The notes below the pieces were generated by a model. It ran no database searches and had not been told where the DNA came from. It saw only the letters and a list, made by a program, of their open reading frames with translations. A program made the position numbers and the translations under genes. DNA of 64,000 bases. It comes from Terriglobia bacterium (lineage in GTDB: Bacteria; Acidobacteriota; Terriglobia; Bryobacterales; Bryobacteraceae). This document shows positions 3,904 to 62,662 of this stretch, one piece after another. The stretch lies in contig CAVQYP010000004.1 of assembly GCA_963718155.1 (NCBI GenBank), positions 373,943 to 437,942 of the forward strand, read 5' to 3'. The first letter of the stretch is position 1. Each line of letters opens with the position of its first letter.

Positions 3904-3930
3904 GGCGGAGACAAGATCGCCGGCGCTACC
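3904..3930. repeat. REP-like element, copy 2 (GGCGGAGACAAGATCGCCGGCGCTACC)
   Basis: Shares the CAAGATCGCC..GCTACC core with copies at 2508 and 23689. Lies in the 395-bp kbl/SIS divergent intergenic region. Confidence 0.45.
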
Positions 3931-4126
3931 AGCGGCGACGTAAAGTTCCGCGCCGAGCGGAAGCTCGGCGGCAGGGCAGAAGCCGTGACCCCACAAAGCT
4001 GCGCAGCGTCTTCCAGTTTTCGCGTCCCGCAAATGCGGACGGTAACCTGCGGAAAGGACTTCGATGCCAGCTTCTCGTTCTGATCCTCACCGTTCCGACA
4101 CCAGGCGCACTGTGCCGGGCTCGAAG

Positions 4127-51378: not shown

Positions 51379-52308
51379 ATGGGAATTCGGCGACTCACAA
51401 TTCTGCTTGTGACGGTTTTTCTGGCGGCAGGGATCTCGGCGAAAAAGAAAAATCCCGACGACATCACCCAGACGCTCGACCTTCCGAAAGATCCTCCGGT
51501 GGTCGCGGTTGGCCAGACGAACCGTCTGACCTTTCACGTTTCGCCTCTTTCGGCGAAGGGGCTTCTTTCACAGCAGACGCGCGAAGCGCTGAAAGCGATC
51601 TTGAGGGAAAACGGGGGCGCCCAGATTATTCATATCCGCGCGTTCGTTGCCGGAAGCGGCGACCTGCGGCGAATTCCACAGATCGTAAGCGAGGTTTTCA
51701 CCGCGAAGAAGATGCAGCTGCCATCAGTAAGCGTGGTGCTTGTGGGCGCTTTGGAACTCCGGGACGCCCAGGTGGTGCTGGAAAGCGTTTCCGAGGCAAA
51801 AAAGGAAGTAAATCCGGACGGACTCCTCTTTATTGAAGCCCAGCCGCCGGATCAGCTGGCAATGCGCCTCGGGAGCGCAGCCGCGCTTCAGGTGACGTGT
51901 TTCGTCGCTTCCATCGATAACACGGCTTCGCTCGCCGCCCGTTTTCCATCCGCCGCTGTCGATATCGTGCAAGCGCAGCGGAGCCCTTCGCGTGCCGGAA
52001 CAAATTGCGAAGCCGTCGGGCGAGGGCACAACCTGGAAGCCGCAAAACTGGCATTCACGGGTACCCAAATATCGTTCGGGGCCGATAAAGCAGCGGCCAA
52101 CCTGGCTTTTGAACACCTGAACCGCGACCTCCAGGCGGGAGGCGCGGACAAGTCCGGAATCGTCGCGACGAATGTCTACTCGTTGTCCGAAAGAATGCAT
52201 GACCTGGTCCCGTCGCTTCCGGGCGTTCTGACGTTCGCGCCTGTTGAAGGCGTTGCATCCGCCGATGGAGTTTTCGCTGTGGATTCCATTGCCGCAGTGC
52301 CGAGGTGA
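51379..52308 (+). CDS. Secreted hypothetical protein
   Basis: 309 aa with signal peptide MGIRRLTILLVTVFLAAGISA. No confident domain call. Confidence 0.55.
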   Translation: MGIRRLTILLVTVFLAAGISAKKKNPDDITQTLDLPKDPPVVAVGQTNRLTFHVSPLSAKGLLSQQTREALKAILRENGGAQIIHIRAFVAGSGDLRRIPQIVSEVFTAKKMQLPSVSVVLVGALELRDAQVVLESVSEAKKEVNPDGLLFIEAQPPDQLAMRLGSAAALQVTCFVASIDNTASLAARFPSAAVDIVQAQRSPSRAGTNCEAVGRGHNLEAAKLAFTGTQISFGADKAAANLAFEHLNRDLQAGGADKSGIVATNVYSLSERMHDLVPSLPGVLTFAPVEGVASADGVFAVDSIAAVPR

Positions 52309-52335: not shown

Positions 52336-53499
52336 GTGTTCAAACGGGTGATCTGGATCGTGCTCGACAGCCTTGGCGTGGGCGAAATGCCGGACGCCGC
52401 AGCTTATGGCGATACCGGCAGCGATACTTTGGGGAACATCGCTCGCGTCCGCGGCCTTAACGTGCCGAATCTCTGCAAGCTGGGTCTCGGCAATCTGAAG
52501 CCGATCCCGGAACTGCCGAAAGCGAACCCGCCGGAGGGCGCTTACGGCCGCTGCACTCTGGCATCTCCGGGAAAAGACACCACGACCGGTCACTGGGAGA
52601 TGGCCGGAATTCATTTGGCCAGGCCGTTTCCCTTGTTTCCCGACGGTTTCCCTGCCGCCATCATGGACGAGTTCGAAAAACAGATCGGCCGTTCGGCGAT
52701 CGGAAACAAGGCCGCCTCCGGCACCGAGATCATCAAGGAACTCGGCGAAGAACATATGCGGACGGGCTCGCCGATCGTTTATACCTCCGCGGACAGTGTT
52801 TTCCAGATTGCCGCCCATGAAGAGGTAATCCCGCTTTGGGAGCTATACAGGATGTGCGAGATCGCGCGCGCCATCCTGCGCGGGCCTTACGAAGTAGGCC
52901 GCGTGATCGCGCGTCCGTTCGAGGGGGCTCCCGGTGAATTCATGCGCACCGCGAATCGCCACGATTATGCGGTTCCTCCCCCAAAAGGAATGCTGCTGGA
53001 CAAGCTTGCGGATCGCAAGGTGGAGGTTTACAGCGTCGGCAAGATTTTTGATGTGTTCCTGGGGCGCGGCATCGAGGATCACGTAACTACAAAAAGCAAT
53101 GCGGACGGCATGGCAAAGACGCTCGAAGCGATGAACGAAGTTAACGCGGGACTTGTGTTCGTGAATCTTGTGGACTTCGACCAGCAATATGGCCATCGCA
53201 ACGACGTGGAAGGCTACGCAGGGGCTATCGAGGAGTTCGATCGGTGGCTGCCGCAGTTCCGGTCAGCGCTCGAACCCACGGATCTGGCAATCATTACGGC
53301 AGACCACGGCTGCGATCCCACCACTGCTTCCACTGACCACAGCCGCGAGTACACGCCCTTGCTCGTCTTCGGGCCAAAAGCGCGGGGAGGCGCCGATCTC
53401 GGATTGCGGGGCACCTTGAGCGATATTGGCCAGACCGTCGCCGAGAATTTTGGCACATCGATTGAAAAAGGAACAAGTTTCTTAAGCCGCGTTGCGTAA
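52336..53499 (+). CDS. deoB: Phosphopentomutase
   Basis: RVIWIVLDSLGVGEMPDA, ITADHGCDPT and the overall length fit DeoB. GTG start. Confidence 0.85.
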   Translation: MFKRVIWIVLDSLGVGEMPDAAAYGDTGSDTLGNIARVRGLNVPNLCKLGLGNLKPIPELPKANPPEGAYGRCTLASPGKDTTTGHWEMAGIHLARPFPLFPDGFPAAIMDEFEKQIGRSAIGNKAASGTEIIKELGEEHMRTGSPIVYTSADSVFQIAAHEEVIPLWELYRMCEIARAILRGPYEVGRVIARPFEGAPGEFMRTANRHDYAVPPPKGMLLDKLADRKVEVYSVGKIFDVFLGRGIEDHVTTKSNADGMAKTLEAMNEVNAGLVFVNLVDFDQQYGHRNDVEGYAGAIEEFDRWLPQFRSALEPTDLAIITADHGCDPTTASTDHSREYTPLLVFGPKARGGADLGLRGTLSDIGQTVAENFGTSIEKGTSFLSRVA

Positions 53500-53516: not shown

Positions 53517-54269
53517 ATGAGCAGACGACGGATGATGGCAGGCAACTGGAAGATGTATAAAACGCCTGCGGATACGCACGCGTTTTTCGAAGCCTTCAAA
53601 CCAATGATCGCCGGTGTCAACCACTGCGAGATCGTGATCTGTCCCCCATTTCCCAATCTGCCGGCCGCAATCGAGGAAGCGCAAGCCAGCAATATCGCGA
53701 TCGGCGGTCAAAACCTCCACTGGGGCAGGGAAGGCGCGGTTACCGGCGAAGTTTCGGGCCACATGCTCCAGGCAGTCGGCTGCCGGTTCGTTGTGATCGC
53801 GCACAGCGAGCGCCGGCAGTACTTCGGCGAAACTGAGCCCGACGTTGTTCGAAAAACGCAGGCGGCGATCGAGTTCGGCCTGGGGCCGATCGTGTGTTTG
53901 GGAGAACGCCTCGATGAGCGGGAAGGAAATCGGACCGAGGAAGTGCTCGGCGAGCAGTTCGATGGCGGACTTGCGCCTCTGACGCCGGAGCAGTTCGCGA
54001 AGGTTGTGATCGCGTATGAACCTGTCTGGGCAATCGGAACGGGAAAAACCGCCACCCCGGCGATTGCCGCTGACGCGCACCGTTTTCTGCGTGCCAAAGC
54101 GGCCGCCCGATTTGGAGACGAGCTTGCCGGGGCAGTGAGAATCCTTTACGGAGGCAGCGTCAAGCCGGACAATGTGAATAAGTTGATGGCGGAAGAAGAG
54201 ATTGACGGCGCGCTCGTGGGGGGCGCCAGCCTCGAACCGGCCTCATTCGCTTCGATCGTGAAATTTTAG
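53517..54269 (+). CDS. tpiA: Triose-phosphate isomerase
   Basis: MAGNWKMYK, VVIAHSERR, AYEPVWAIGTG and LYGGSVKP motifs. Confidence 0.92.
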   Translation: MSRRRMMAGNWKMYKTPADTHAFFEAFKPMIAGVNHCEIVICPPFPNLPAAIEEAQASNIAIGGQNLHWGREGAVTGEVSGHMLQAVGCRFVVIAHSERRQYFGETEPDVVRKTQAAIEFGLGPIVCLGERLDEREGNRTEEVLGEQFDGGLAPLTPEQFAKVVIAYEPVWAIGTGKTATPAIAADAHRFLRAKAAARFGDELAGAVRILYGGSVKPDNVNKLMAEEEIDGALVGGASLEPASFASIVKF

Positions 54270-54275
54270 ATAACC

Positions 54276-55040
54276 ATGCTGGAAGAATCCCTTCAAACAT
54301 TTCAGGAACAAGTCGAGACATCGCTTCAGAACGTCAATGCGTTGACGCGGCGGCTAAAGAAACTCGCCGCCGCCGCGCATACGGGAGATCTTCGAGAGAT
54401 CGATAAGGGCCTGGCGGACATCAACACCGTCGCTGCAACGGCCGTCGAAGGCGTCGCGGGGATCGAGTTCCGCTTTGACGAGGAGAGTTACTTTGAGAAC
54501 GGATTTCTCAAGGAGATCGTTGAGACCGCCGCCGCCGCTGGAATGAGCGTGTTTGCGCTGGACGGTAAGCTTTACTGCTACCCTTTGCTGGTGCGTCTGA
54601 AACCCTCGGAACGCGCGGTGCAGATCGGCAAGAAAATGGAACGCGGTATTCGCCCCTCGGCTCTGCTCGCGAAGCTGCGGGCGATGCAGATGAAGCCCGC
54701 ACGGTTCAAGCCGGAGGGTTTTCTTGAACTTCTCTTTCGCGTTTGGAAAAGAAGCGTGCGGGAGGAAAGAAAGATCGTCCTCTTGAACGAGATATACGAT
54801 CTGCTGACGCTCATGCCCGGCAGCGCAAGAGACTACACTCGTGAAGAGTTCGCGCGCGACTTGTACCTGCTCGACCGCAGCGGTGTGAACCAGACGCGCG
54901 ACGGTTTCATCGTCAGTCTTCCCGCCAGTACGGGAACCCGTAACGCCGCGGCGACTCTCGTTTGCATTGCGGAAGACGGATCGGAAAAGCGATATTACGG
55001 GATCGGTTTCGAACGCGCATCGGCGGAGGCTGCCGGATGA
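54276..55040 (+). CDS. Cassette gene A: 254-aa protein of unknown function (coiled-coil N-terminus)
   Basis: Starts 6 nt after the tpiA stop, and its own stop overlaps the start of gene B (ATGA at 55037-55040). I cannot recognise a domain. Confidence 0.7.
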   Translation: MLEESLQTFQEQVETSLQNVNALTRRLKKLAAAAHTGDLREIDKGLADINTVAATAVEGVAGIEFRFDEESYFENGFLKEIVETAAAAGMSVFALDGKLYCYPLLVRLKPSERAVQIGKKMERGIRPSALLAKLRAMQMKPARFKPEGFLELLFRVWKRSVREERKIVLLNEIYDLLTLMPGSARDYTREEFARDLYLLDRSGVNQTRDGFIVSLPASTGTRNAAATLVCIAEDGSEKRYYGIGFERASAEAAG

Positions 55041-55972
55041 CGGAGTGGCTCCAGGCGATCGATCGCGAGTATCTCGGCGATTACGTTCTCGCCGGCGGAG
55101 GTTCTCTAAAATTCGCGATCGGTCCTCCTGAGAGCGTCCGCGAAGCGTTCGATGAGCTCGAAGCCGCGGCCCTCCGGCGTGAATTCGTCTTTATCGAACT
55201 CGGCGCCGCGGAGACAAAGCTGAACCGCAGCGATCACGTCTTCTTCGATATCGCAAAGCACATCGATTGGGAAGGTCTGGCGCGAAGCTACGTCATCTCC
55301 TCCTTCGCAAAACGCGGATTCTCGATTGCCGCCTGCGGAACTCCCATCGATTTGACAGCGGCCGCGCAGGCAGCCGGGTTGGACGAATCGCTCCTTCGGG
55401 GCTATATGCGGGAATCGGTGCTGGAGTTGTATCAGGACTATGCGATGTCCCAGGAGTTCCGTTTGGCCATGATTCAACTCTGCCGCGCGGAGATTGCGGG
55501 CCTCGAGAACTCCGCCGAAGCCGTGAAGCGGTGGCTTCGGGGAGAGTTAAAGCGAATCTCGGAAGTCAGGACCGCGAAGCTGTTTCAGAAGATCGGCCGT
55601 CAGAACGCGCGCCTGATGCTGCAGTCGCTCGCTTACTGGATGCGGCGGAATGGCGTTCCCGGGCTTGTACTGACAATCGATCTCGCACGCTGTCTCGAGA
55701 ATGTGAAAAAGGCCGACCGGGGCTCTGGCTACTACTATTCATCCAGCGCGCTGACCGAAGTTTACGAGATGCTTCGGCAGCTGATCGACGGATCTTCAAG
55801 TCTCGAAGGGGTACTGATCGCGGTGCTGGCGCCCGGCAGCTTTTTGTCCGATGAGAGGCGCGGGGTAGACCGTTACCAGGCGCTCAAGATGCGGATCTTC
55901 GACGATGTCCGCACCCACGGACGCCAGAACATTCTTGCTCCGCTGGTGCGTCTGAGCGAGCAAGCGGTATAG
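55037..55972 (+). CDS. Cassette gene B: 311-aa P-loop-like protein with degenerate Walker motifs (possible inactive paralogue of gene C)
   Basis: AGGGSLKF sits where Walker A would be and LVLTIDLA where Walker B would be. The start is translationally coupled to gene A. Confidence 0.65.
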   Translation: MTEWLQAIDREYLGDYVLAGGGSLKFAIGPPESVREAFDELEAAALRREFVFIELGAAETKLNRSDHVFFDIAKHIDWEGLARSYVISSFAKRGFSIAACGTPIDLTAAAQAAGLDESLLRGYMRESVLELYQDYAMSQEFRLAMIQLCRAEIAGLENSAEAVKRWLRGELKRISEVRTAKLFQKIGRQNARLMLQSLAYWMRRNGVPGLVLTIDLARCLENVKKADRGSGYYYSSSALTEVYEMLRQLIDGSSSLEGVLIAVLAPGSFLSDERRGVDRYQALKMRIFDDVRTHGRQNILAPLVRLSEQAV

Positions 55973-55984
55973 AAGGAAGTAGAG

Positions 55985-57289
55985 ATGTCGCCCGAAGAAA
56001 AGATGATCGAAAAATTCGCCGCGAGAAGCGCGATTGAGGCTCTCCGCGCCGGAGTGCCGAACGCTTACGGTGTGCGTGCTTTGGGTTGCGATCAGCCGAA
56101 AGTCGAGCTGGAGTTTACACAGCAGCTTGAGGGTGCGGGCGGAATCTTTGGCCATTCGGGAAGGGGACTGCTGATCCAGGGAGACTTCGGGACAGGGAAG
56201 TCGCATACGCTCGAATTCCTGCGCGAAACGGCGCTCGACCGCAAGTTCGTCTGCAGCCAGCTGTACATCAGCAAGGAAACGCCTCTGCACGATCCCGTCA
56301 AGCTGTTCCAGGCGGCCGCCGAGAGTGCGGTTGCGCCGAATCGCACCGGATCGGCCTTTGTCGAAATTGCCAATCAGCTGGTCTTCAACTCGCAGTCATA
56401 TCGCGGCTTCGAAAGGTGGGCAAATCAGGCGGCGACGGGGCTGGATGCACGTTTCCCGGCTTCTCTTTTGCTGTTTGAGCAGTTTCAGTCCGACCACGAG
56501 TTCCGTGATCAGATCATCCGCTTCTGGGCGGGCGGGAAACTCGCCGCGGCCGAGGTCAAATCGCGGATCAAGCAAATCGGGGAGAGCTGGGCGCCGGGCT
56601 TTACAAGCCAGCGGGATCTCGCGATTCAGCGGTTCCGATTCGCCAGCCGGCTGACGCGCGCCGCAGGATATGCGGGCTGGGTGCTCCTGATCGACGAAGT
56701 GGAACTGATCGGAACCTACAGCCCTCTGCAACGGGCCAAATCATACATCGAGATCGGGAGAATGATGACGGCCGCCGACGATCCCGGCATGGCGGCGATT
56801 CCCATTCTCGCAATTACGGAAGACTTCGCCGAAGCCGTTTTGAAAGAGAAGGGCGATCTGGACAGGATACCGGTGATTCTGCAGGAGCGGACGCAGTTCG
56901 CGGGTACGCCCGACGCCTCGCTTGCTTCAGCGGGCATGAGAATTCTGGCGGAGAAGGGTATCTCGCTCAAGCGGCCCGGCGAAAGCGCGCTCGACGAGAC
57001 GTATGGAAGGATTCGCGCGCTCTACACGCAGGCTTTCGATTGGGAGCCGCCTGTGCCCGCCGATTATGAGCAGGCCGCGATCCGACGCGAGCAGAGCACG
57101 CCATTGCGGGCATATATTCGACGTTGGATCACGGAATGGGATCTGCAGCGGCTCTATCCGGACACGATAGTCGAAATCGAGACCGCGAAGTGGAGCACGG
57201 ATTACAGCGAAAATGCCGAAGAAGAAAGCCCCGCCGACGAAGCCCCGAGCGATCAGAGTTTAGTCGATGACCTAATAGGGGATATTTAA
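55985..57289 (+). CDS. Cassette gene C: 434-aa P-loop NTPase, DUF2791/BrxD-like by recollection
   Basis: Walker A GDFGTGKS (aa 66-73), Walker B WVLLIDEVE, acidic C-terminal tail. GGAAG lies upstream of the ATG, which is 12 nt after the gene B stop. Confidence 0.72.
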   Translation: MSPEEKMIEKFAARSAIEALRAGVPNAYGVRALGCDQPKVELEFTQQLEGAGGIFGHSGRGLLIQGDFGTGKSHTLEFLRETALDRKFVCSQLYISKETPLHDPVKLFQAAAESAVAPNRTGSAFVEIANQLVFNSQSYRGFERWANQAATGLDARFPASLLLFEQFQSDHEFRDQIIRFWAGGKLAAAEVKSRIKQIGESWAPGFTSQRDLAIQRFRFASRLTRAAGYAGWVLLIDEVELIGTYSPLQRAKSYIEIGRMMTAADDPGMAAIPILAITEDFAEAVLKEKGDLDRIPVILQERTQFAGTPDASLASAGMRILAEKGISLKRPGESALDETYGRIRALYTQAFDWEPPVPADYEQAAIRREQSTPLRAYIRRWITEWDLQRLYPDTIVEIETAKWSTDYSENAEEESPADEAPSDQSLVDDLIGDI

Positions 57290-57310
57290 GGTCGAGAAGC
57301 CGGCCAAACC

Positions 57311-59198
57311 TCACGCCGCGCTACTGCCGGCTTGCTGGTGCGACTTATTTCCCGCCCCTTCCGAAGACGAATAGCGCACACCCAGGTGGCGCGCCATGCA
57401 GAAGAAGATTTCTGTCTGGCGAAATGGCTTGAAAGTGAAGTCGTCAAAGCCTGCGCGCATCACCCCGTCACGCTCCGAAGCATCTGCAGACGCGGTTATG
57501 GCAGCGATCTTTACCTCCGCCCCGCCGTCCAACTGGCGAATCCGCCGTGTCGCTTCCGTGCCACTCAACTGAGGCAGACCCAGATCCATCCAGATAAAGT
57601 GCGGCCGCCACTGCTGGAACGCCTCGATCCCGAGTGCTCCATTCTCCGCGACCCTCACCTGAAAGCCGGCGCGAGTCAGCATCTTCCGCAAGACCGTGGC
57701 GCTTTCAGGGTCGTCTTCGACAATCAGAACGCGCCATTCCGGTTGGCCTGATTCCAGGATGAAAGGATGCCCCGGGGCCAGTTCTACGCCGTAAGTCTCC
57801 GACTCCGTTGCCAGTTCCAGCGGCAGTTCGACCACGAAACGTGAACCTCGGCCCACCTCGCTCTCAACAAGCAGCGTCCCGCCCATCAGCTCTACAAATC
57901 GGCGAGTAATCGTCAGGCCGAGACCTGTGCCCGTTTGTGGACCAGGATTGCGCACCTGTTCGAACGGCTCGAATATGCGGCCCAGGTCGTGTTGTGGCAT
58001 CCCCACGCCGCTGTCCTCAATATCGAAACAAAACCGGGCGCGTCCGGGTTCGTCAGCCGGCTGAGCGCTCAACCGTAGCTTTACGGTTCCTTCTTTTGTG
58101 AACTTGATGGCGTTGCCGAGCAGGTTGATGAGGATTTGCCGCAACTTCGGCGCATCTACGCGGACGTAGCGCGGCACTTTAGGAGCTTGATGGTAAACGA
58201 GCGCCAGATGCTTCTCCTCCGCCCGGCCCCGCATCATTTCAACCACCGTTCGCACCGTGGAGATCAAATCGCTGGCTGCGATCGCGAGTTCCTCTTTGCC
58301 AGCCTCGATTTTGGCGACATCCAGCACGTCGTCGATCAGTCCCAGGAGATGCTCGCCGCTGCGGCCGATCGCGTCGATGTCTTCACGCTGATCGGCGGTT
58401 GGGTTACTCTCGCTCAGGAGCTCGGAGGATGCCAGGATGACGCTGAGGGGCGTACGAAGTTCGTGGCTCATATTGGCCAGGAACGCGCTCTTGGCCCGGT
58501 TGGCGGACTCCGCCTGATCGCGCGCCTCGACCAGTTCCGCGGTTCGCTGCGTCACCAGGTGTTCCAGGTGCTCCTTGTATTCCTGCAAGTTCCTTGCGGT
58601 CACGGCGAGACTGCTCCAGTGCAGCTTGCAGCGTTTTTAAAACGTGCGCCACCGGGACCCCGCCGATCAGGACGGTGAACACGAGGAATGACCAGATTCC
58701 CAATGGTGTTGCTGCAACGTAGTGCGGGAACTCCACGCCGGCGATTTTGAAAATCGCGAAGGCCAGAGCGCTGCTCAGGCTCACGCCCGTCGTCCAGAGT
58801 GCCCCTCTGAACCCGAGAAGCCAAGCCGCCGAGATGGGAATGGTCACGTAAAGGGATAGCACCGGGCTGTCGATTCCGGTGTGGAATGCGGCTATCAGAG
58901 TGGTGTACAACCAGGCGGTGGCCATGTACACCAGGCTGGCTCGCCGGAGGGATCCAAGGCGAAGCAGAAACAACGCCGTGACGCAGCCGGTTTCCGCCAG
59001 GGCAAAAAGGCCGAACCTGTGTATCGTAATCGGGTAGATGGTCGTGACGAAGTGTCCGAATATGAACCAGCCCACCAGAAAAAGGTTGAGGCCATGCAGC
59101 GTCTGAGCGGTAGTATCGGCCGCAAGAGGGCCGCGGAGACGCAACGCATGAGTAACGTTTCGAACGCGCTGCCGAAATGAGGACCGCTCGCTCAACAT
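57311..59198 (-). pseudogene. Hybrid sensor histidine kinase (TM sensor + HisKA + HATPase_c + REC), frame break near 58600
   Basis: 58404-59198 encodes about 6 TM helices. 57311-58603 has the H-box FLANMSHELRTPL, the G-boxes and a C-terminal receiver (VLIVEDD..IWMDLGLPQLSG). The two halves are in different frames. Confidence 0.72.
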
Positions 59199-59389: not shown

Positions 59390-62300
59390 ATGCGGATCGG
59401 GGTCATTTATTTCATTTGCCTTATTCGCGACAAGTCCGATTCTCGCGCAGACACTGCTCGGCGCAGGAGCTCTCGGCGGCACCATTCGCGACGAATCCGG
59501 CGCGGTGGTAGCCGACGCCAAGGTCAGTCTGACGGAAGAATCGAAGGGCTTAGTCCGCGAATCCAAGTCCGACCGCGATGGATCGTTCCTGTTTCCGGCG
59601 ATCATCGCGGGCGTGTATTCCATTAGAGCGGAGAAGCGCAGGTTTCAGCCCCGCGCGGATAAACGGCTTAAAGATCGAAATCGGGGAACAGGCCTCCGTA
59701 GTGATCGACTTACGGCTCGAGGCGCTCCGAACGGTACTTACTGTACAGGCTCCCACAACAATAGAACTCGACGCGGGAAGCCAACTCCCGAGGTTCGGTA
59801 GTGGATTCCGAACAGGTTCGGGAGTTACCGCTGAATGGCCGCAATCTGCTGGACTTGGCGGGGTTGGCGGCTGGCGCACTGGAACTCAACCTCCCCGAAG
59901 TATCAGTTTTCCAACAACGTGGGGCTGACTGAGCGCACGATTGTTCTACCCGCAACGCTTCCCAACTCGGTGACTTATTCCCTGAACGGCATTAACATTA
60001 CCGGGTCGAGGGACGGTGAGTTGGCCCTTAGTCCCTCAGTTGCGGCCGTCGACCAGTTCAAAGTGCAGCAGAGTTTCCTGATGCCGGACGAGGGGGTCAA
60101 TCCGGCTGTCGTAAATATCGTGACCAAGAGCGGAAGTAACCGGTTCCATGGCGACGCCTTCGAGTTTCTGCGGAACGGGAGCCTCGACGCCCGAAGTTTC
60201 TTTGCCACCGGCCCGGAGGACTTGAAACGGAACCAGTTCGGTGTCGCGCTCGGAGGACCGATACGGAAAGACCGGGTGTGGTTTCATGGGTTTTACGAGG
60301 GGCTCCGGCAACTCCGGCGTTCTCCACCGCCGGATTCAGCCCGACCGAAGACATGTTCCAGGGAAATTTCGCAGGAACGGGGCACATCATCTACAACCCG
60401 GCCAGCTTTGATCCGTCTTCCGGAACTCGCCAGCCATTTCCTGGCAATGTCATTCCCTTGAGCCAGATCAACCGGGTGGCGCAGAATCTCCTGCCCTACT
60501 ACCTGCCGGGTTCAAGCCTCTCGAGTATTCCGAGCAACATCCGCGGGAATCCGCGAGATACCGTGAACGACGATCAGGGCGGAGTACGAGTGGACGCGGC
60601 GTTGCATGCAGGCAACATCAATTGTTCGGCCAGATCTTCCAGCAGAATACGCCATCGGATCAACCCGGATTGTATCCGTTCAGCGGACTCCTGTACCATG
60701 AATGGTTCGACCCTGGCGATGTTGCAGGAAGTGTGGACGGTGAGTCCTCAAGCGGTGAACACTTTGAGGACTTGGCTTTCTGCGCAACTTCGCGACCGGT
60801 GGCAATGAGGCGCAAGGTCAGGGCCCGATCCTTGCCTCCATCGGAATAGCGAATACCTTCGAGCAAAGTGGAGTCACCGCGATTAATCTGCAGGGATATT
60901 CTTCGTTTGGCAGAGCCAACGGCGAGGTTGGCAACCACGACAACACCTGGCAATTCGATGAGGAGTTCACGTACATCGGGGGCGGCACCATTTCGCGTTT
61001 GGGGCTGATTTGCGTTACCGGCGTGGATGGCACCAGAACGGAAACGGGAACGCGCTGGGAAGCCTCTCGTTCCAGCCTGCGTTCACCGCTCAGTTGACAT
61101 CGAACTCTCAAGGGCAACTGGTCCCGCTGGCGAACACCGGCGATTCCTTTGCCGATTTCCTGCTCGGGCTTCCTGTCACCGGTACTTTGCTCGGTTTCCC
61201 GGTGGTCCAGTATCGGGCGACGCAGTTCACTCCGTTCTTTCAGGACAGTTGGAAGCTTACGAGTAATCTGACTCTGAATTACGGGATTTCCTGGTTTCTG
61301 GACCCTCCTCCCGAGCCTCAGGGTTCGGCGCGCAATTTGATCCATGGCTTCGATACGCAGACCGGTCTGCTGACTTTCGCCGTTCTTGGTCAGATGAGTT
61401 ATCACGCGGTAGCTACCGACAAGAACAATTTCGCGCCGCGCCTGGGTCTGGCTTGGAAGCCGGATTTTCTCAGGAACACGGTAATTCGCGCCGGCGCCGG
61501 AGTTTACTACTCTCCGTTCCAGTGGTTCTGGGCTCCCTACCCGCTGATCGGCTCGCCTGTAGGAGCGGGCACCAGTTTCACGAATGCGCTCGCCAACCCG
61601 CAGCCGGCGTATGTGATGGGCATGAACATTTTTCCCGCGGCCGCAACCGGTGGCGTGACCCCAGAGCTACGCGACGAACCTCGCCGCCGGGAATGGTGGC
61701 AACAGCCCTGAATCCCGACTTCCGAACGGCTTATGTCAGCCAATGGAACCTTTCCATCCAGCACGGCCTCGGCCGGAACGATTCTGGTCGACCTGGACTA
61801 TCTGGGCTCGAGCGGGCACAAACTGCCAAATGTCTCGGATATTTCGCAATGCCGGCCCACCGCCAACCTGTTCTGCGGCGCCAAAACCTGGCCGCAATAT
61901 GGTGCGTTGCTGTACGCGCAAAGCGGCGGCAATTCGTCCTATGAGGCTTTGATCGCCAAATACGAACATCGCGCGGCATACGGCCTGAATTTGCGATTCG
62001 AATATGCGTTGGCCAAAGCGATCACCGACACCTTTCAACTCACTGTCGCGGCCAACAATCAGATATCGGATTGCCAGGCTTGTTCGAAGGGCCCCGCGAC
62101 GTTCGATGTTCGCCAGCGGGCGGTGGGCAGCGTGGTGTGGGCGTTGCCCTTCGGCCGCGGACAACGCTTTGGTGGGCAGTTGCCGGGATGGGCAAACATT
62201 GCCGCGGGAGGATGGACCCTGACCGCGATTGCTACATTCTCCACCGGCCAGCCAATACAACTGGCAGCGCCGAACCAGACGGGCAACGCTTTTATCACTC

Positions 62301-62662
62301 CACTTCCGAACCGCGTTTGTGACGGACGAAGCAGCCAGCTTTCCGGCAACATTCGTCAGAATGGTTTCCTGTGGTTCGACACCGCGTGCTTTCCTGTGCC
62401 GGCGGTTGGGTATTTCGGCAACAGTGGTCCCACGGTGATCAACGGCCCCGGGATCAACAACTGGGATATCGGCGCGGAGAAGTCCTTCGTTCTTCCGCGA
62501 GAGGCAGCGAGAGTGCAGCTTCGGGCAGAGCTGTTCAACGCCTGGAATCACGCCCAGTTCAGCCAGCCCAACGGTAATGCTGGTGCAGGCCCGAACTTCG
62601 GCCGTATTTCGGCCAGCGGCCCCGGGCGCCTGATACAAGTCGCCGCCAAGGTTTATTGGTAG
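59390..62662 (+). pseudogene. TonB-dependent receptor (CarboxypepD_reg type), at least 8 frame breaks
   Basis: Signal peptide MRIGVIYFI.., then GTIRDESGAVVADAKVSL..DGSFLFPAIIAGVYSIRAEK. Barrel segments are spread over ORFs 59835-60461, 60278-60808, 61010-61711 and 61733-62662. Ends ..RLIQVAAKVYW. Confidence 0.7.

What the first reader, a model, noticed from the sequence alone, without database searches (positions are those of the whole stretch)
54276..57289. Tightly coupled three-gene P-loop cassette inserted behind tpiA: candidate uncharacterised NTPase system
Three co-oriented ORFs carry coupling signatures. Gene A starts 6 nt after the tpiA stop. The start of gene B overlaps the stop of gene A (ATGA at 55037-55040). 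Gene C starts 12 nt after gene B, with GGAAG upstream. Gene C (434 aa) has a canonical Walker A (GDFGTGKS) and Walker B (VLLIDEVE). Gene B (311 aa) has the same layout with degenerate motifs (AGGGSLKF, LVLTIDLA), so B and C look like an inactive/active paralogue pair. Gene A (254 aa) has no domain I can name. From memory, C and perhaps B resemble the DUF2791/BrxD-type P-loop family (PF10923) known from BREX type 2 and Ter-linked conflict systems. No PglZ, methyltransferase, BrxC, helicase or TerB gene lies nearby, so it is not a recognisable BREX or Shango locus. The cassette sits directly behind the glycolytic gene tpiA and ends against a convergent kinase gene, which fits a self-contained roughly 3-kb insertion.
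Basis: partly seen in the sequence, partly recalled or inferred. Interest (0 to 1): 0.8.

Follow-up and report, generated by a model that had tools for sequence, protein, structure and literature searches.

The report
Helicase-less BrxD-like ATPase trio
Behind the glycolysis gene tpiA sit three tightly packed genes: a protein with no known relatives, a dead copy of a BrxD-type ATPase and a live copy; elsewhere the same trio usually leads an undescribed five-gene cassette ending in a DNA helicase-nuclease, so this is probably a stripped-down variant of an unnamed defence-like system.

Summary
Genes A (54276-55040), B (55037-55972) and C (55985-57289) are real, intact and under purifying selection as strong as tpiA (dN/dS 0.07-0.15). 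B and C both pass the Pfam cut-off for PF10923 (BrxC/BrxD, formerly DUF2791). C keeps invariant Walker A and B motifs; B has lost its P-loop. A gives a confident AlphaFold model but matches no family and no known fold.

In 56 of 58 genomes with enough sequence after A, B and C follow in the same order. These genomes span at least eight phyla.

In 43 of 48 non-acidobacterial loci where it could be judged, C is followed by D (about 188 aa, unknown) and/or E (an SNF2 helicase, usually fused to an Mrr nuclease). The window belongs to a separate acidobacterial clade that always lacks D and E. The 64-kb window holds no D, E or other known defence gene.

It is not BREX type 2 and not Shango. I found no family model or paper that describes it. 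The most likely role is an ATP-driven, DNA-associated sensor or loader module of a defence-like system, here working without its usual helicase-nuclease. That function is inferred, not shown.

The parts
53517..54269 (+). tpiA (triosephosphate isomerase). This is context: the upstream gene of the probable shared transcript deoB-tpiA-A-B-C.
   Evidence: Pfam TIM 1.5e-87. deoB at 52336-53499 lies 17 nt upstream. No terminator-like site lies in the 6-nt tpiA-A gap, and the scan found no more sites than in shuffled sequence. The deoB-tpiA pair is conserved without the trio in L073-L081.
54276..55040 (+). Gene A, 254 aa, a member of an unnamed family. It has an N-terminal antiparallel helical hairpin (2-61), a small alpha/beta domain (72-125), a basic helical segment (127-205, pI 9.8) and a C-terminal beta region (211-247).
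   Evidence: No hit in Pfam, NCBIfam, PADLOC or PHROGs. 378 homologues in the word-indexed search and 958 representative clusters at E<=1e-3 in the exhaustive search. AlphaFold2 pLDDT 91.4, pTM 0.77. No Foldseek match at E<=0.001 in PDB or BFVD. 20 invariant columns in 71 sequences. dN/dS 0.07-0.09. pI by segment.
55037..55972 (+). Gene B, 311 aa, a catalytically dead BrxD-family (PF10923) P-loop protein. The P-loop is deleted. The Walker B Asp (D215) is kept but the catalytic Glu is lost. Several Arg residues are invariant (R188, R218, R247, R286, R305).
   Evidence: Pfam PF10923 2.8e-18, 66.5 bits against a cut-off of 22.2. PADLOC BrxD 1.9e-12 and SngB 5.4e-8. NCBIfam BrxD 42 bits against a cut-off of 350. 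Alignments. AlphaFold2 pLDDT 93.2, pTM 0.91. Foldseek gives only weak matches to P-loop ATPases such as TrwB, Cdc6, RdrA and HslU, with E>=0.02. dN/dS 0.13-0.15.
55985..57289 (+). Gene C, 434 aa, an active-looking BrxD-family (PF10923) AAA+ ATPase. Walker A is G66-S73 (K72) and Walker B is D237-E238. The acidic C-terminal tail ends in the clade-specific motif SDQSLVDDLIGDI.
   Evidence: Pfam PF10923 2.5e-19. PADLOC BrxD 2.2e-13 and SngB 1.3e-8. NCBIfam BrxD 50 bits against a cut-off of 350. Motif residues are invariant in 24 orthologues. Tail comparison. Sources name homologues only 'BREX system ATP-binding domain-containing protein' or 'DUF2791 family P-loop domain-containing protein'. dN/dS 0.09-0.10.
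55037..55040 (+). ATGA overlap between the stop of A and the start of B, a signature of translational coupling.
   Evidence: Sequence read directly. The ORF coordinates imply the same overlap in L001, L002 and L003.
57311..59198 (-). Convergent hybrid histidine kinase. It marks the 3' boundary of the cassette and is not part of it. In this window it is split by a frameshift.
   Evidence: Pfam HisKA, HATPase_c and Response_reg. Synteny with L002 ends right after C, at 57298. The frameshift is seen against the 628-aa ORF of L001.

Best explanation
A-B-C is an accessory, horizontally spread gene module. It is built around a pair of BrxD-family (ORC/Cdc6-like AAA+) proteins: C hydrolyses ATP, and B is a conserved non-catalytic partner that has lost its P-loop. 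A is a dedicated third subunit with a previously unseen fold.

In most lineages this trio forms the first three genes of a five-gene cassette, A-B-C-D-E. E is an SNF2 translocase, usually fused to an Mrr-type nuclease.

By analogy with the two other settings where stand-alone BrxD-type ATPases occur, I infer that A/B/C assemble on DNA and use ATP to recognise a target and to load or switch on the helicase-nuclease. Those settings are the BrxD-BrxHI pair of BREX type 2 and the SngB-SngC pair of Shango. This would make the cassette a defence-like or DNA-conflict system.

The window carries a distinct acidobacterial variant that has only A-B-C. It is tightly coupled, probably co-transcribed with deoB-tpiA, and under strong purifying selection. 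In this variant the ATPase module presumably works on its own or with a partner encoded elsewhere. The clade-specific C-terminal tail of C is a candidate docking peptide for such a partner.

Shown: gene integrity, family membership of B and C, motif status, conservation of the trio, linkage to D/E elsewhere, absence of D/E here, and selection.
Inferred: that A, B and C form a complex, that they bind DNA, that they load an effector, that the role is defence, and that they are transcribed with tpiA.
For: Family and motifs.

Trio conservation: 56 of 58 loci with at least 2.4 kb after A have B then C in order. These loci come from Acidobacteriota, Chloroflexota, Nitrospirota, Syntrophales and other Deltaproteobacteria, Bacillota, Armatimonadota, Gemmatimonadota and Binatia.

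D and E: they follow C in 43 of 48 non-acidobacterial loci that could be judged. E contains SNF2-rel_dom, Helicase_C and Mrr_cat; its best PADLOC match is ZorD at 1e-72.

ABC-only clade: it is monophyletic and is the deep sister of all other loci under midpoint rooting.

Accessory and mobile character: the trio was detected in only 72 of 185,579 species genomes, by a scan for two nearly invariant A-family peptides. Flanking genes are unrelated between loci, with 193 Pfam families among 136 flanking ORFs. Some loci lie next to type I R-M, DruA, PsyrA, DRT or PDC-S01 genes. Acidobacterial copies sit in four different neighbourhoods.

Selection: dN/dS 0.07-0.15.

Analogy: PMC12839542 classifies BrxD as an ORC/Cdc6 AAA+ ATPase, notes its tight pairing with the helicase BrxHI, and proposes helicase loading. 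Shango consists of a TerB-like protein, an ATPase and a DEAD/DEAH helicase, and has shown anti-phage activity.

A pairing of an active with an inactive ORC/Cdc6-like P-loop protein is also the BrxC-BrxB theme in BREX.
Against: There is no experimental evidence for any member of this family.

The window's locus lacks the only recognisable effector (E). The 64-kb window contains no known defence gene.

All five proteins are about equally well conserved, at 53-58% mean pairwise identity. No component evolves fast, as sensors in defence systems often do. BrxB, for example, is described as rapidly evolving.

No copy was found on plasmids, phages or viral contigs, and no integrase or transposase recurs in the flanks.

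The flank sampling shows only a modest presence of defence genes, and some of the PADLOC matches (mad2/3, GajB, TmtA) may be generic ATPase or helicase hits.

The tight link to tpiA would equally fit constitutive, housekeeping-style expression.

The A/B/C complex was not modelled.
Confidence: 0.5

Rival explanations
1. The acidobacterial trio depends on a helicase-nuclease or another effector encoded elsewhere in the genome. It is therefore a split version of the five-gene system and not an autonomous module.
For: In other phyla D and E are almost always adjacent. C in the ABC-only clade carries its own conserved C-terminal peptide, SDQSL[IV]DD[VL][IL]GDI, in place of the DYTEDxxLE tail of five-gene loci. 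This could be a docking site for a different partner. Five scattered non-acidobacterial loci also lack D and E next to C.
Against: No D or E homologue lies in the 64-kb window or in the 5-6 kb flanks of six acidobacterial loci. No conserved neighbour was found in that clade. Whole genomes could not be searched with these tools.
Confidence: 0.25
2. The trio has been co-opted for a housekeeping or DNA-maintenance role in these Acidobacteria, for example as an ORC/Cdc6-like DNA-bound ATPase complex. Its expression with tpiA would reflect constitutive need, not defence.
For: The gap after tpiA is 6 nt, and the scan found no promoter-like site and no terminator-like site in that gap. Purifying selection is as strong as on tpiA. 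All components are well conserved with no hypervariable part. There are no defence genes in the window.
Against: The distribution is very patchy: 72 of 185,579 species genomes, and only seven loci of the ABC-only clade including the window. The position in the genome differs between acidobacterial carriers. None of 80 related tpiA loci carries the trio. The closest relatives of the trio are linked to a helicase-nuclease.
Confidence: 0.15
3. The trio is a decaying remnant of a five-gene cassette that lost D and E, and it no longer functions.
For: D and E are the rule elsewhere, and single-tip losses do occur (L020, L024, L030, L060, L064). Neighbouring genes in the window, the histidine kinase and the outer-membrane protein gene, are frameshifted.
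Against: All three ORFs are intact, with invariant motifs. dN/dS is 0.07-0.15. The ABC-only form persists across a clade whose members have diverged to 52-60% protein identity. It also keeps overlapping start and stop codons.
Confidence: 0.04
4. The locus is a fragment or divergent form of BREX type 2 or Shango.
For: B and C give weak PADLOC hits to BrxD (about 1e-12 to 1e-13) and SngB (about 1e-8).
Against: NCBIfam BrxD scores are 42 and 50 bits against a cut-off of 350. The window has no PglW, PglX, PglY, PglZ, BrxHI, TerB protein or SngC. A has no TerB match. In relatives the helicase is of the SNF2/ZorD type, not Lhr/Ski2-like or DEAD/DEAH-box as in those systems.
Confidence: 0.02

Closest known systems
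BrxD, the stand-alone ATPase of BREX type 2 (Pgl), paired with the helicase BrxHI
   Same: It is a stand-alone PF10923 P-loop protein of about 430 aa with no extra domains. It is classified as an ORC/Cdc6-type AAA+ ATPase (PMC12839542). It is tightly linked to an SF2 helicase, as C is linked to E in most relatives of this locus.
   Different: B and C score far below the NCBIfam BrxD cut-off (42 and 50 bits against 350). There is no PglW, PglX, PglY or PglZ. This system has two paralogues, one inactive, plus the unknown proteins A and D. The partner helicase in relatives is SNF2(-Mrr), not the Ski2/Lhr-like BrxHI. The window has no helicase at all.
Shango (SngA TerB-like protein, SngB ATPase, SngC DEAD/DEAH helicase)
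   Same: It is a small cassette that combines a PF10923-type ATPase with an SF2 helicase and a third, non-enzymatic protein. It has shown anti-phage activity. B and C give weak PADLOC SngB hits.
   Different: There is no TerB domain: A matches nothing. The ATPase is duplicated into an active and an inactive copy. The helicase of relatives is SNF2 with an Mrr nuclease. An extra gene D is present in relatives, while the window has neither D nor a helicase.
BrxB-BrxC pair of BREX (an inactive STAND/ORC-Cdc6-like P-loop protein with an active ORC/Cdc6 AAA+ ATPase)
   Same: It shares the same architectural idea: a dead P-loop protein encoded next to, and working with, an active ORC/Cdc6-like ATPase. 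In BREX these follow a small putative DNA-binding protein (BrxA), giving the same A-B-C gene order.
   Different: B matches PF10923, not the BrxB family, and A did not match BrxA by sequence or fold. BrxB is described as rapidly evolving, whereas B is the best conserved of the three proteins in the 24-sequence alignments (mean column identity 58%). C lacks the long DNA-binding and coiled-coil extensions of BrxC.
ZorD (Zorya type I) and DpdE, SNF2 helicases that in ZorD are fused to an Mrr-like nuclease
   Same: Protein E of the related five-gene loci has the same SNF2 plus Mrr_cat make-up. Its best PADLOC hits are ZorD (1e-72) and DpdE (3e-62).
   Different: E is absent from the window. NCBIfam ZorD and DpdE scores are far below their cut-offs. 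Among the 136 flanking ORFs sampled, none of the listed PADLOC hits was to ZorA, ZorB, ZorC or a Dpd partner.

Membership tests
Pfam PF10923 (BrxC_BrxD, formerly DUF2791) | The whole-protein score is above the Pfam gathering cut-off of 22.2 bits. | tested here: met
   B scores 66.5 bits and C scores 70 bits. All listed homologues of B and C carry PF10923 in the precomputed annotation. A does not match.
Pfam PF10923 (BrxC_BrxD, formerly DUF2791) | Intact Walker A (GxxxxGK[ST]) and Walker B (hhhhDE) motifs, as expected of an active ATPase. | tested here: met
   Met for C: GDFGTGKS and LLIDE are invariant in 24 orthologues. Not met for B: it has no GK[ST], its P-loop is reduced to about 2 residues, and D215 is not followed by Glu.
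BrxD proper (NCBIfam NF033438, equivalog) | A score of at least 350 bits. | tested here: not met
   B scores 42.2 bits and C scores 50 bits. The orthologues from L011 score 45 and 70 bits.
BREX type 2 (Pgl) system | PglW, PglX (methyltransferase), PglY/BrxC, PglZ and BrxHI are present in the locus. | tested here: not met
   59 other ORFs of the 64-kb window gave no PADLOC hit at E<=1e-8. The flanking genes are deoB, tpiA and a histidine kinase.
Shango | An SngA protein with a TerB domain. | tested here: not met
   A has no TerB or other Pfam match, even when 71 family members are scanned at E<=1. A has no PADLOC match.
Shango | An adjacent SngC DEAD/DEAH-box helicase. | tested here: not met
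   There is no helicase in the window. In related loci the helicase is of the SNF2 type, with ZorD and DpdE as best matches.
Unnamed A-B-C-D-E cassette (defined here from 72 loci) | An A-family protein followed by an inactive and then an active PF10923 paralogue, in that order on one strand. | tested here: met
   The window has this arrangement. 56 of 58 loci with at least 2.4 kb after A have the same order.
Unnamed A-B-C-D-E cassette (defined here from 72 loci) | D (about 188 aa) and E (SNF2 helicase with or without Mrr nuclease) lie directly downstream of C. | tested here: not met
   D and E are absent from the window and from all six other loci of the acidobacterial clade. They are present in 43 of 48 other loci that could be judged.
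[quoted passage not shown] | A helix-extension-helix insert after strand 2, an arginine finger, and a C-terminal helical bundle, seen in a structure. | tested here: inconclusive
   The B model matches Cdc6/ORC, TrwB, HslU and RdrA only weakly (E 0.02-0.2, TM 0.2-0.35). C was not modelled. The classification of BrxD is taken from PMC12839542.

The most novel reading that the evidence does not exclude
A-B-C(-D-E) is a previously undescribed, phylogenetically widespread conflict system. A heteromeric BrxD-type AAA+ motor (active C with dead B) and a protein of new fold (A) control an SNF2-Mrr helicase-nuclease. The acidobacterial ABC-only clade would then show that this ATPase module has a function of its own without the helicase-nuclease. 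That function could be a new effector-free or trans-acting mode of immunity, or a domesticated DNA-maintenance role.
Probability: 0.35. Interest if true: 0.75.

Novelty: new variant of a known kind. Interest (0 to 1): 0.6.

Why it matters
Stand-alone BrxD/SngB-type ATPases are among the least understood parts of BREX type 2 and Shango. Their role, possibly helicase loading, is only conjecture.

This family offers a compact natural test case. It has an active/inactive ATPase pair, a dedicated partner with a new fold, and two natural versions, one with and one without the helicase-nuclease. Comparing the two versions could show what the ATPase module does by itself.

The family is confined to uncultured soil and sediment lineages. 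It is missing from PADLOC 2.0 and NCBIfam 2026 and from the plasmid and phage collections. Current defence-system annotation would therefore overlook it.

Tried and rejected
- Direct B-versus-C comparison: BLASTP gave E=0.5. hhalign of the two 24-sequence profiles gave probability 8% and E=0.004, with a colinear alignment that matches the Walker B strands. This is too weak to prove paralogy on its own.
- Sequence search of A, B and C profiles against PDB chains: only noise. A matched coiled-coil designs, and C matched TnsC, BrxC and others at E>=0.05.
- Foldseek of the A model against PDB and BFVD: nothing at E<=0.001.
- Foldseek of the B model: only weak matches to generic P-loop ATPases.
- Scan of 71 A-family members against Pfam at E<=1: only coiled-coil noise.
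- hhalign of A against D, D against B and D against C: no relationship.
- Idea that A is less basic in the ABC-only clade: rejected, because pI varies from 5.3 to 10.1 in both groups.
- Base composition as a sign of insertion: no contrast, with GC 0.56-0.60 in the cassette and 0.57-0.62 in the flanks.
- Promoter and terminator scan: not informative, as counts were no higher than in shuffled sequence.
- Exact look-up of A in the assembly index: not on record.
- Plasmid, phage and IMG/VR searches with A: no match.
- Literature searches for DUF2791, PF10923, BrxD-like, and BrxD with SNF2: no description of this cassette.
- The 2012 Ter-systems paper (PMC4104200), which from my memory discusses DUF2791-helicase operons, is not held in the library.
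- A true empty site (deoB-tpiA followed directly by the histidine kinase) was not found. The nearest tpiA locus without the trio (L073, 80% TpiA identity) has different downstream genes.


Full report
**What is in the window.**
- tpiA runs from 53517 to 54269 (Pfam TIM, 1.5e-87).
- Gene A (54276-55040, 254 aa) starts 6 nt after the tpiA stop.
- Gene B (55037-55972, 311 aa) starts with the ATGA that overlaps the stop of A.
- Gene C (55985-57289, 434 aa) starts 12 nt after B.
- A convergent hybrid histidine kinase ends 21 nt after C.

The longer TTG-started ORF at 54962 is an artefact, because orthologues of B begin at the residues encoded from 55037. Base composition does not set the cassette apart from its flanks. 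The promoter and terminator scan is uninformative.

**The genes are real.** Two Terriglobia MAG contigs, L001 and L002, are 89% and 86% identical in DNA across the region from deoB and tpiA through B. Against them, dN/dS is 0.07-0.09 for A, 0.13-0.15 for B and 0.09-0.10 for C. tpiA gives 0.067.

**What the proteins are.** B and C both pass the Pfam gathering score for PF10923, the BrxC/BrxD family formerly called DUF2791 (2.8e-18 and 2.5e-19).
- PADLOC gives only weak BrxD hits (about 1e-12 to 1e-13) and SngB hits (about 1e-8).
- The NCBIfam BrxD equivalog scores 42 and 50 bits against a cut-off of 350. The two proteins belong to the domain family but are not BrxD.

In 24 orthologues of C, the Walker A residues (F68, G69, G71, K72, S73, H74) and the Walker B residues D237 and E238 are invariant.

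B has no GK[ST] motif. Its AlphaFold model (pLDDT 93.2, pTM 0.91) places SLKFAI as strand beta-1, with only about two residues (G29-P30) before helix alpha-1, which starts at P31. The P-loop is therefore essentially deleted. The Walker B strand survives, with D215 invariant, but the catalytic Glu is missing. Several arginines are invariant.

Direct B-to-C similarity is weak. BLASTP gives E=0.5, and hhalign gives 8% probability, although the alignment is colinear and matches the Walker B strands. The case for paralogy therefore rests on both proteins passing the same Pfam model.

A matches nothing in Pfam, NCBIfam, PADLOC or PHROGs, even when 71 members are scanned at E<=1. It still forms a sizeable and well-conserved family: 378 homologues in the indexed search and 958 representative clusters in the exhaustive search. 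Its model is confident (pLDDT 91.4). It shows a long helical hairpin, a small alpha/beta domain, a basic helical segment and a C-terminal beta region. It has no Foldseek match at E<=0.001 in PDB or BFVD.

**The trio is a conserved unit, and usually part of something larger.** A scan of one genome per species (185,579 species) with two nearly invariant A-family peptides found 72 loci. They come from Acidobacteriota, Chloroflexota, Nitrospirota, Syntrophales and other Deltaproteobacteria, Bacillota, Armatimonadota, Gemmatimonadota and Binatia. Of 58 loci with at least 2.4 kb after A, 56 have B and then C on the same strand.

Clustering all flanking ORFs revealed two further genes directly after C in most loci.
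- D is about 188 aa and has no family.
- E is 560-820 aa with SNF2-rel_dom and Helicase_C, and usually a C-terminal Mrr_cat nuclease. Its best PADLOC matches are ZorD (1e-72) and DpdE.

NCBIfam (June 2026) has no model for A or D, and E falls below every cut-off.

A neighbour-joining tree of C shows that the window, L001-L005 and L072 form a monophyletic acidobacterial clade. Under midpoint rooting it is the deep sister of all other loci. No member of this clade has D or E, although 3.4-6.7 kb of sequence follows C in each. Among the remaining loci that could be judged, 43 of 48 have D and/or E, and the five exceptions are scattered single tips. The window contains no D or E homologue anywhere. 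None of its other 59 ORFs hits a PADLOC model at E<=1e-8. Acidobacteriota can also carry the five-gene form, as in L027 from Pyrinomonadaceae, so the ABC-only form is not simply how this phylum carries the system.

**Mobility and context.** Only L001 and L002 share the deoB-tpiA-A-B-C arrangement. L001 is syntenic with the window well past C, whereas synteny with L002 stops right after C.

Other members of the clade lie next to unrelated genes. These include a molybdopterin oxidoreductase, a gltD-like gene with a GNAT acetyltransferase, an RNase_H_2-superfamily gene with an IrrE-like peptidase, and a TonB-type outer-membrane protein.

Eighty tpiA loci from metagenomes (46-80% TpiA identity) include several with the conserved deoB-tpiA pair. 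None has A, B or C. In the closest of them (L073), tpiA is followed by a lolD-like gene and clpC. This fits an addition behind tpiA in a recent ancestor, although an exact empty site was not found.

Across all loci the flanks are heterogeneous, with 193 Pfam families in 136 ORFs. A minority of flanking genes are known defence genes: type I R-M, DruA, PsyrA, DRT and PDC-S01. No A homologue occurs in 72,556 plasmids, 50,697 phage records or IMG/VR.

**Mechanism.** What follows is inference. Stand-alone PF10923 ATPases are known from two settings.
- In BREX type 2, BrxD forms a tight pair with the helicase BrxHI. BrxD is classified there as an ORC/Cdc6 AAA+ ATPase and is proposed to load or activate the helicase (PMC12839542).
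- In Shango, an ATPase sits with a TerB-like protein and a DEAD/DEAH helicase, and the system protects against phages.

BREX also pairs an active ORC/Cdc6-like ATPase (BrxC) with a dead P-loop protein (BrxB).

The five-gene cassette has the same logic. I therefore propose that C is the motor, B is a non-catalytic subunit, and A is an adaptor or DNA-binding subunit. Together they would recognise a DNA target and load or switch on the SNF2-Mrr effector.

In the window's clade the effector gene is missing, yet all three genes are strongly constrained and translationally coupled. The module must therefore do something without a neighbouring helicase-nuclease. The tail of C differs between the two forms: SDQSL[IV]DD[VL][IL]GDI in the ABC-only clade and DYTEDxxLE in five-gene loci. 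It is a plausible docking peptide for a different partner.

Several points count against a classical defence reading. All five proteins are about equally conserved (53-58% mean pairwise identity), so no component looks like a fast-evolving sensor. The window is not a defence island. The link to tpiA suggests constitutive expression.

**Comparison with known systems and novelty.** The locus fails the membership tests for BrxD proper, BREX type 2 and Shango. It is a member of the PF10923 domain family. I found no model or paper that describes the A-B-C or A-B-C-D-E arrangement. The 2012 Ter-systems paper could not be read. I rate it a new variant of a known kind, namely systems that combine a BrxD-type ATPase with a helicase. 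It has one component of unknown fold and a natural helicase-less lineage.

**Caveats.** Loci were found through A only, so trio conservation is conditional on A being present. All loci are from MAGs or metagenomes. Flanking ORFs were called mechanically. The tree is a simple neighbour-joining tree with midpoint rooting. The window itself shows frameshifts in two neighbouring genes. These may be assembly errors, but A, B, C, tpiA and deoB are intact.

Noticed in passing
window 57311-59198 (- strand): The hybrid histidine kinase downstream of C is split by a frameshift near 58587-58603. In L001 the orthologue is one 628-aa ORF. Residues 1-204 and 202-628 of that ORF map to different frames in the window.
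   Followed up: partly
window 59400-62660 (+ strand): A TonB-type outer-membrane protein gene is broken into at least six frame segments relative to L001. It is either a pseudogene or carries long-read indel errors. This is a caution for reading any single ORF in this window.
   Followed up: partly
L001 9700-9826, L002 9694-9846, window 3910-4012 (- strand): A GC-rich element of about 90-150 nt that folds into three hairpins lies between B and C in both closest relatives. At that spot the window has only a 12-nt spacer, but it carries a copy (85-92% identical) at 3910-4012. This looks like a dispersed REP- or MITE-like repeat.
   Followed up: partly
window 57170-57286 (C-terminal tail of C); the same region in L001-L005 and L072: C proteins of the ABC-only clade end in a conserved SDQSL[IV]DD[VL][IL]GDI peptide after an acidic stretch. 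C proteins of five-gene loci instead carry DYTEDxxLE followed by an acidic tail. This may be a partner-docking motif that changed when D and E were lost or gained.
   Followed up: partly
L048 11043-14456, L070 6924-10424, L037 12005-14980: In three deltaproteobacterial or Binatia loci, a gene of about 1150 aa is inserted between C and D. In L048, the copy scanned against Pfam, it combines a zinc ribbon, a guanylate/adenylate cyclase domain, an AAA_16/STAND domain and TPR repeats; the L070 and L037 genes cluster with it by sequence.
   Followed up: partly
L010 11628-13322, L031 11082-13379, L022 6054-8423: E is variable. Some copies lack the Mrr nuclease domain (L010, 564 aa). In L031, and apparently in L022, D and E are fused into one protein. 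The nuclease is therefore not an obligatory part of the five-gene cassette.
   Followed up: partly
L069 7762-8460: This Chloroflexota contig has an A homologue (residues 2-224 matched) with no B or C in the 6.6 kb that follow. It is the only such case among 58 loci with enough sequence.
   Followed up: no
L005 6201-7943 and 11482-11994: In one acidobacterial ABC-only locus, a 580-aa protein with an RNase_H_2-superfamily (exonuclease-like) domain lies directly upstream of A on the same strand. An IrrE-like M78 peptidase lies downstream. These may be local partners, but they are not conserved in the clade.
   Followed up: no
window 51379-52308 (+ strand): A 309-aa ORF of unknown function lies directly upstream of deoB on the same strand. 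It is conserved in L001 and L002 and may be the first gene of the same transcript as deoB-tpiA-A-B-C.
   Followed up: no
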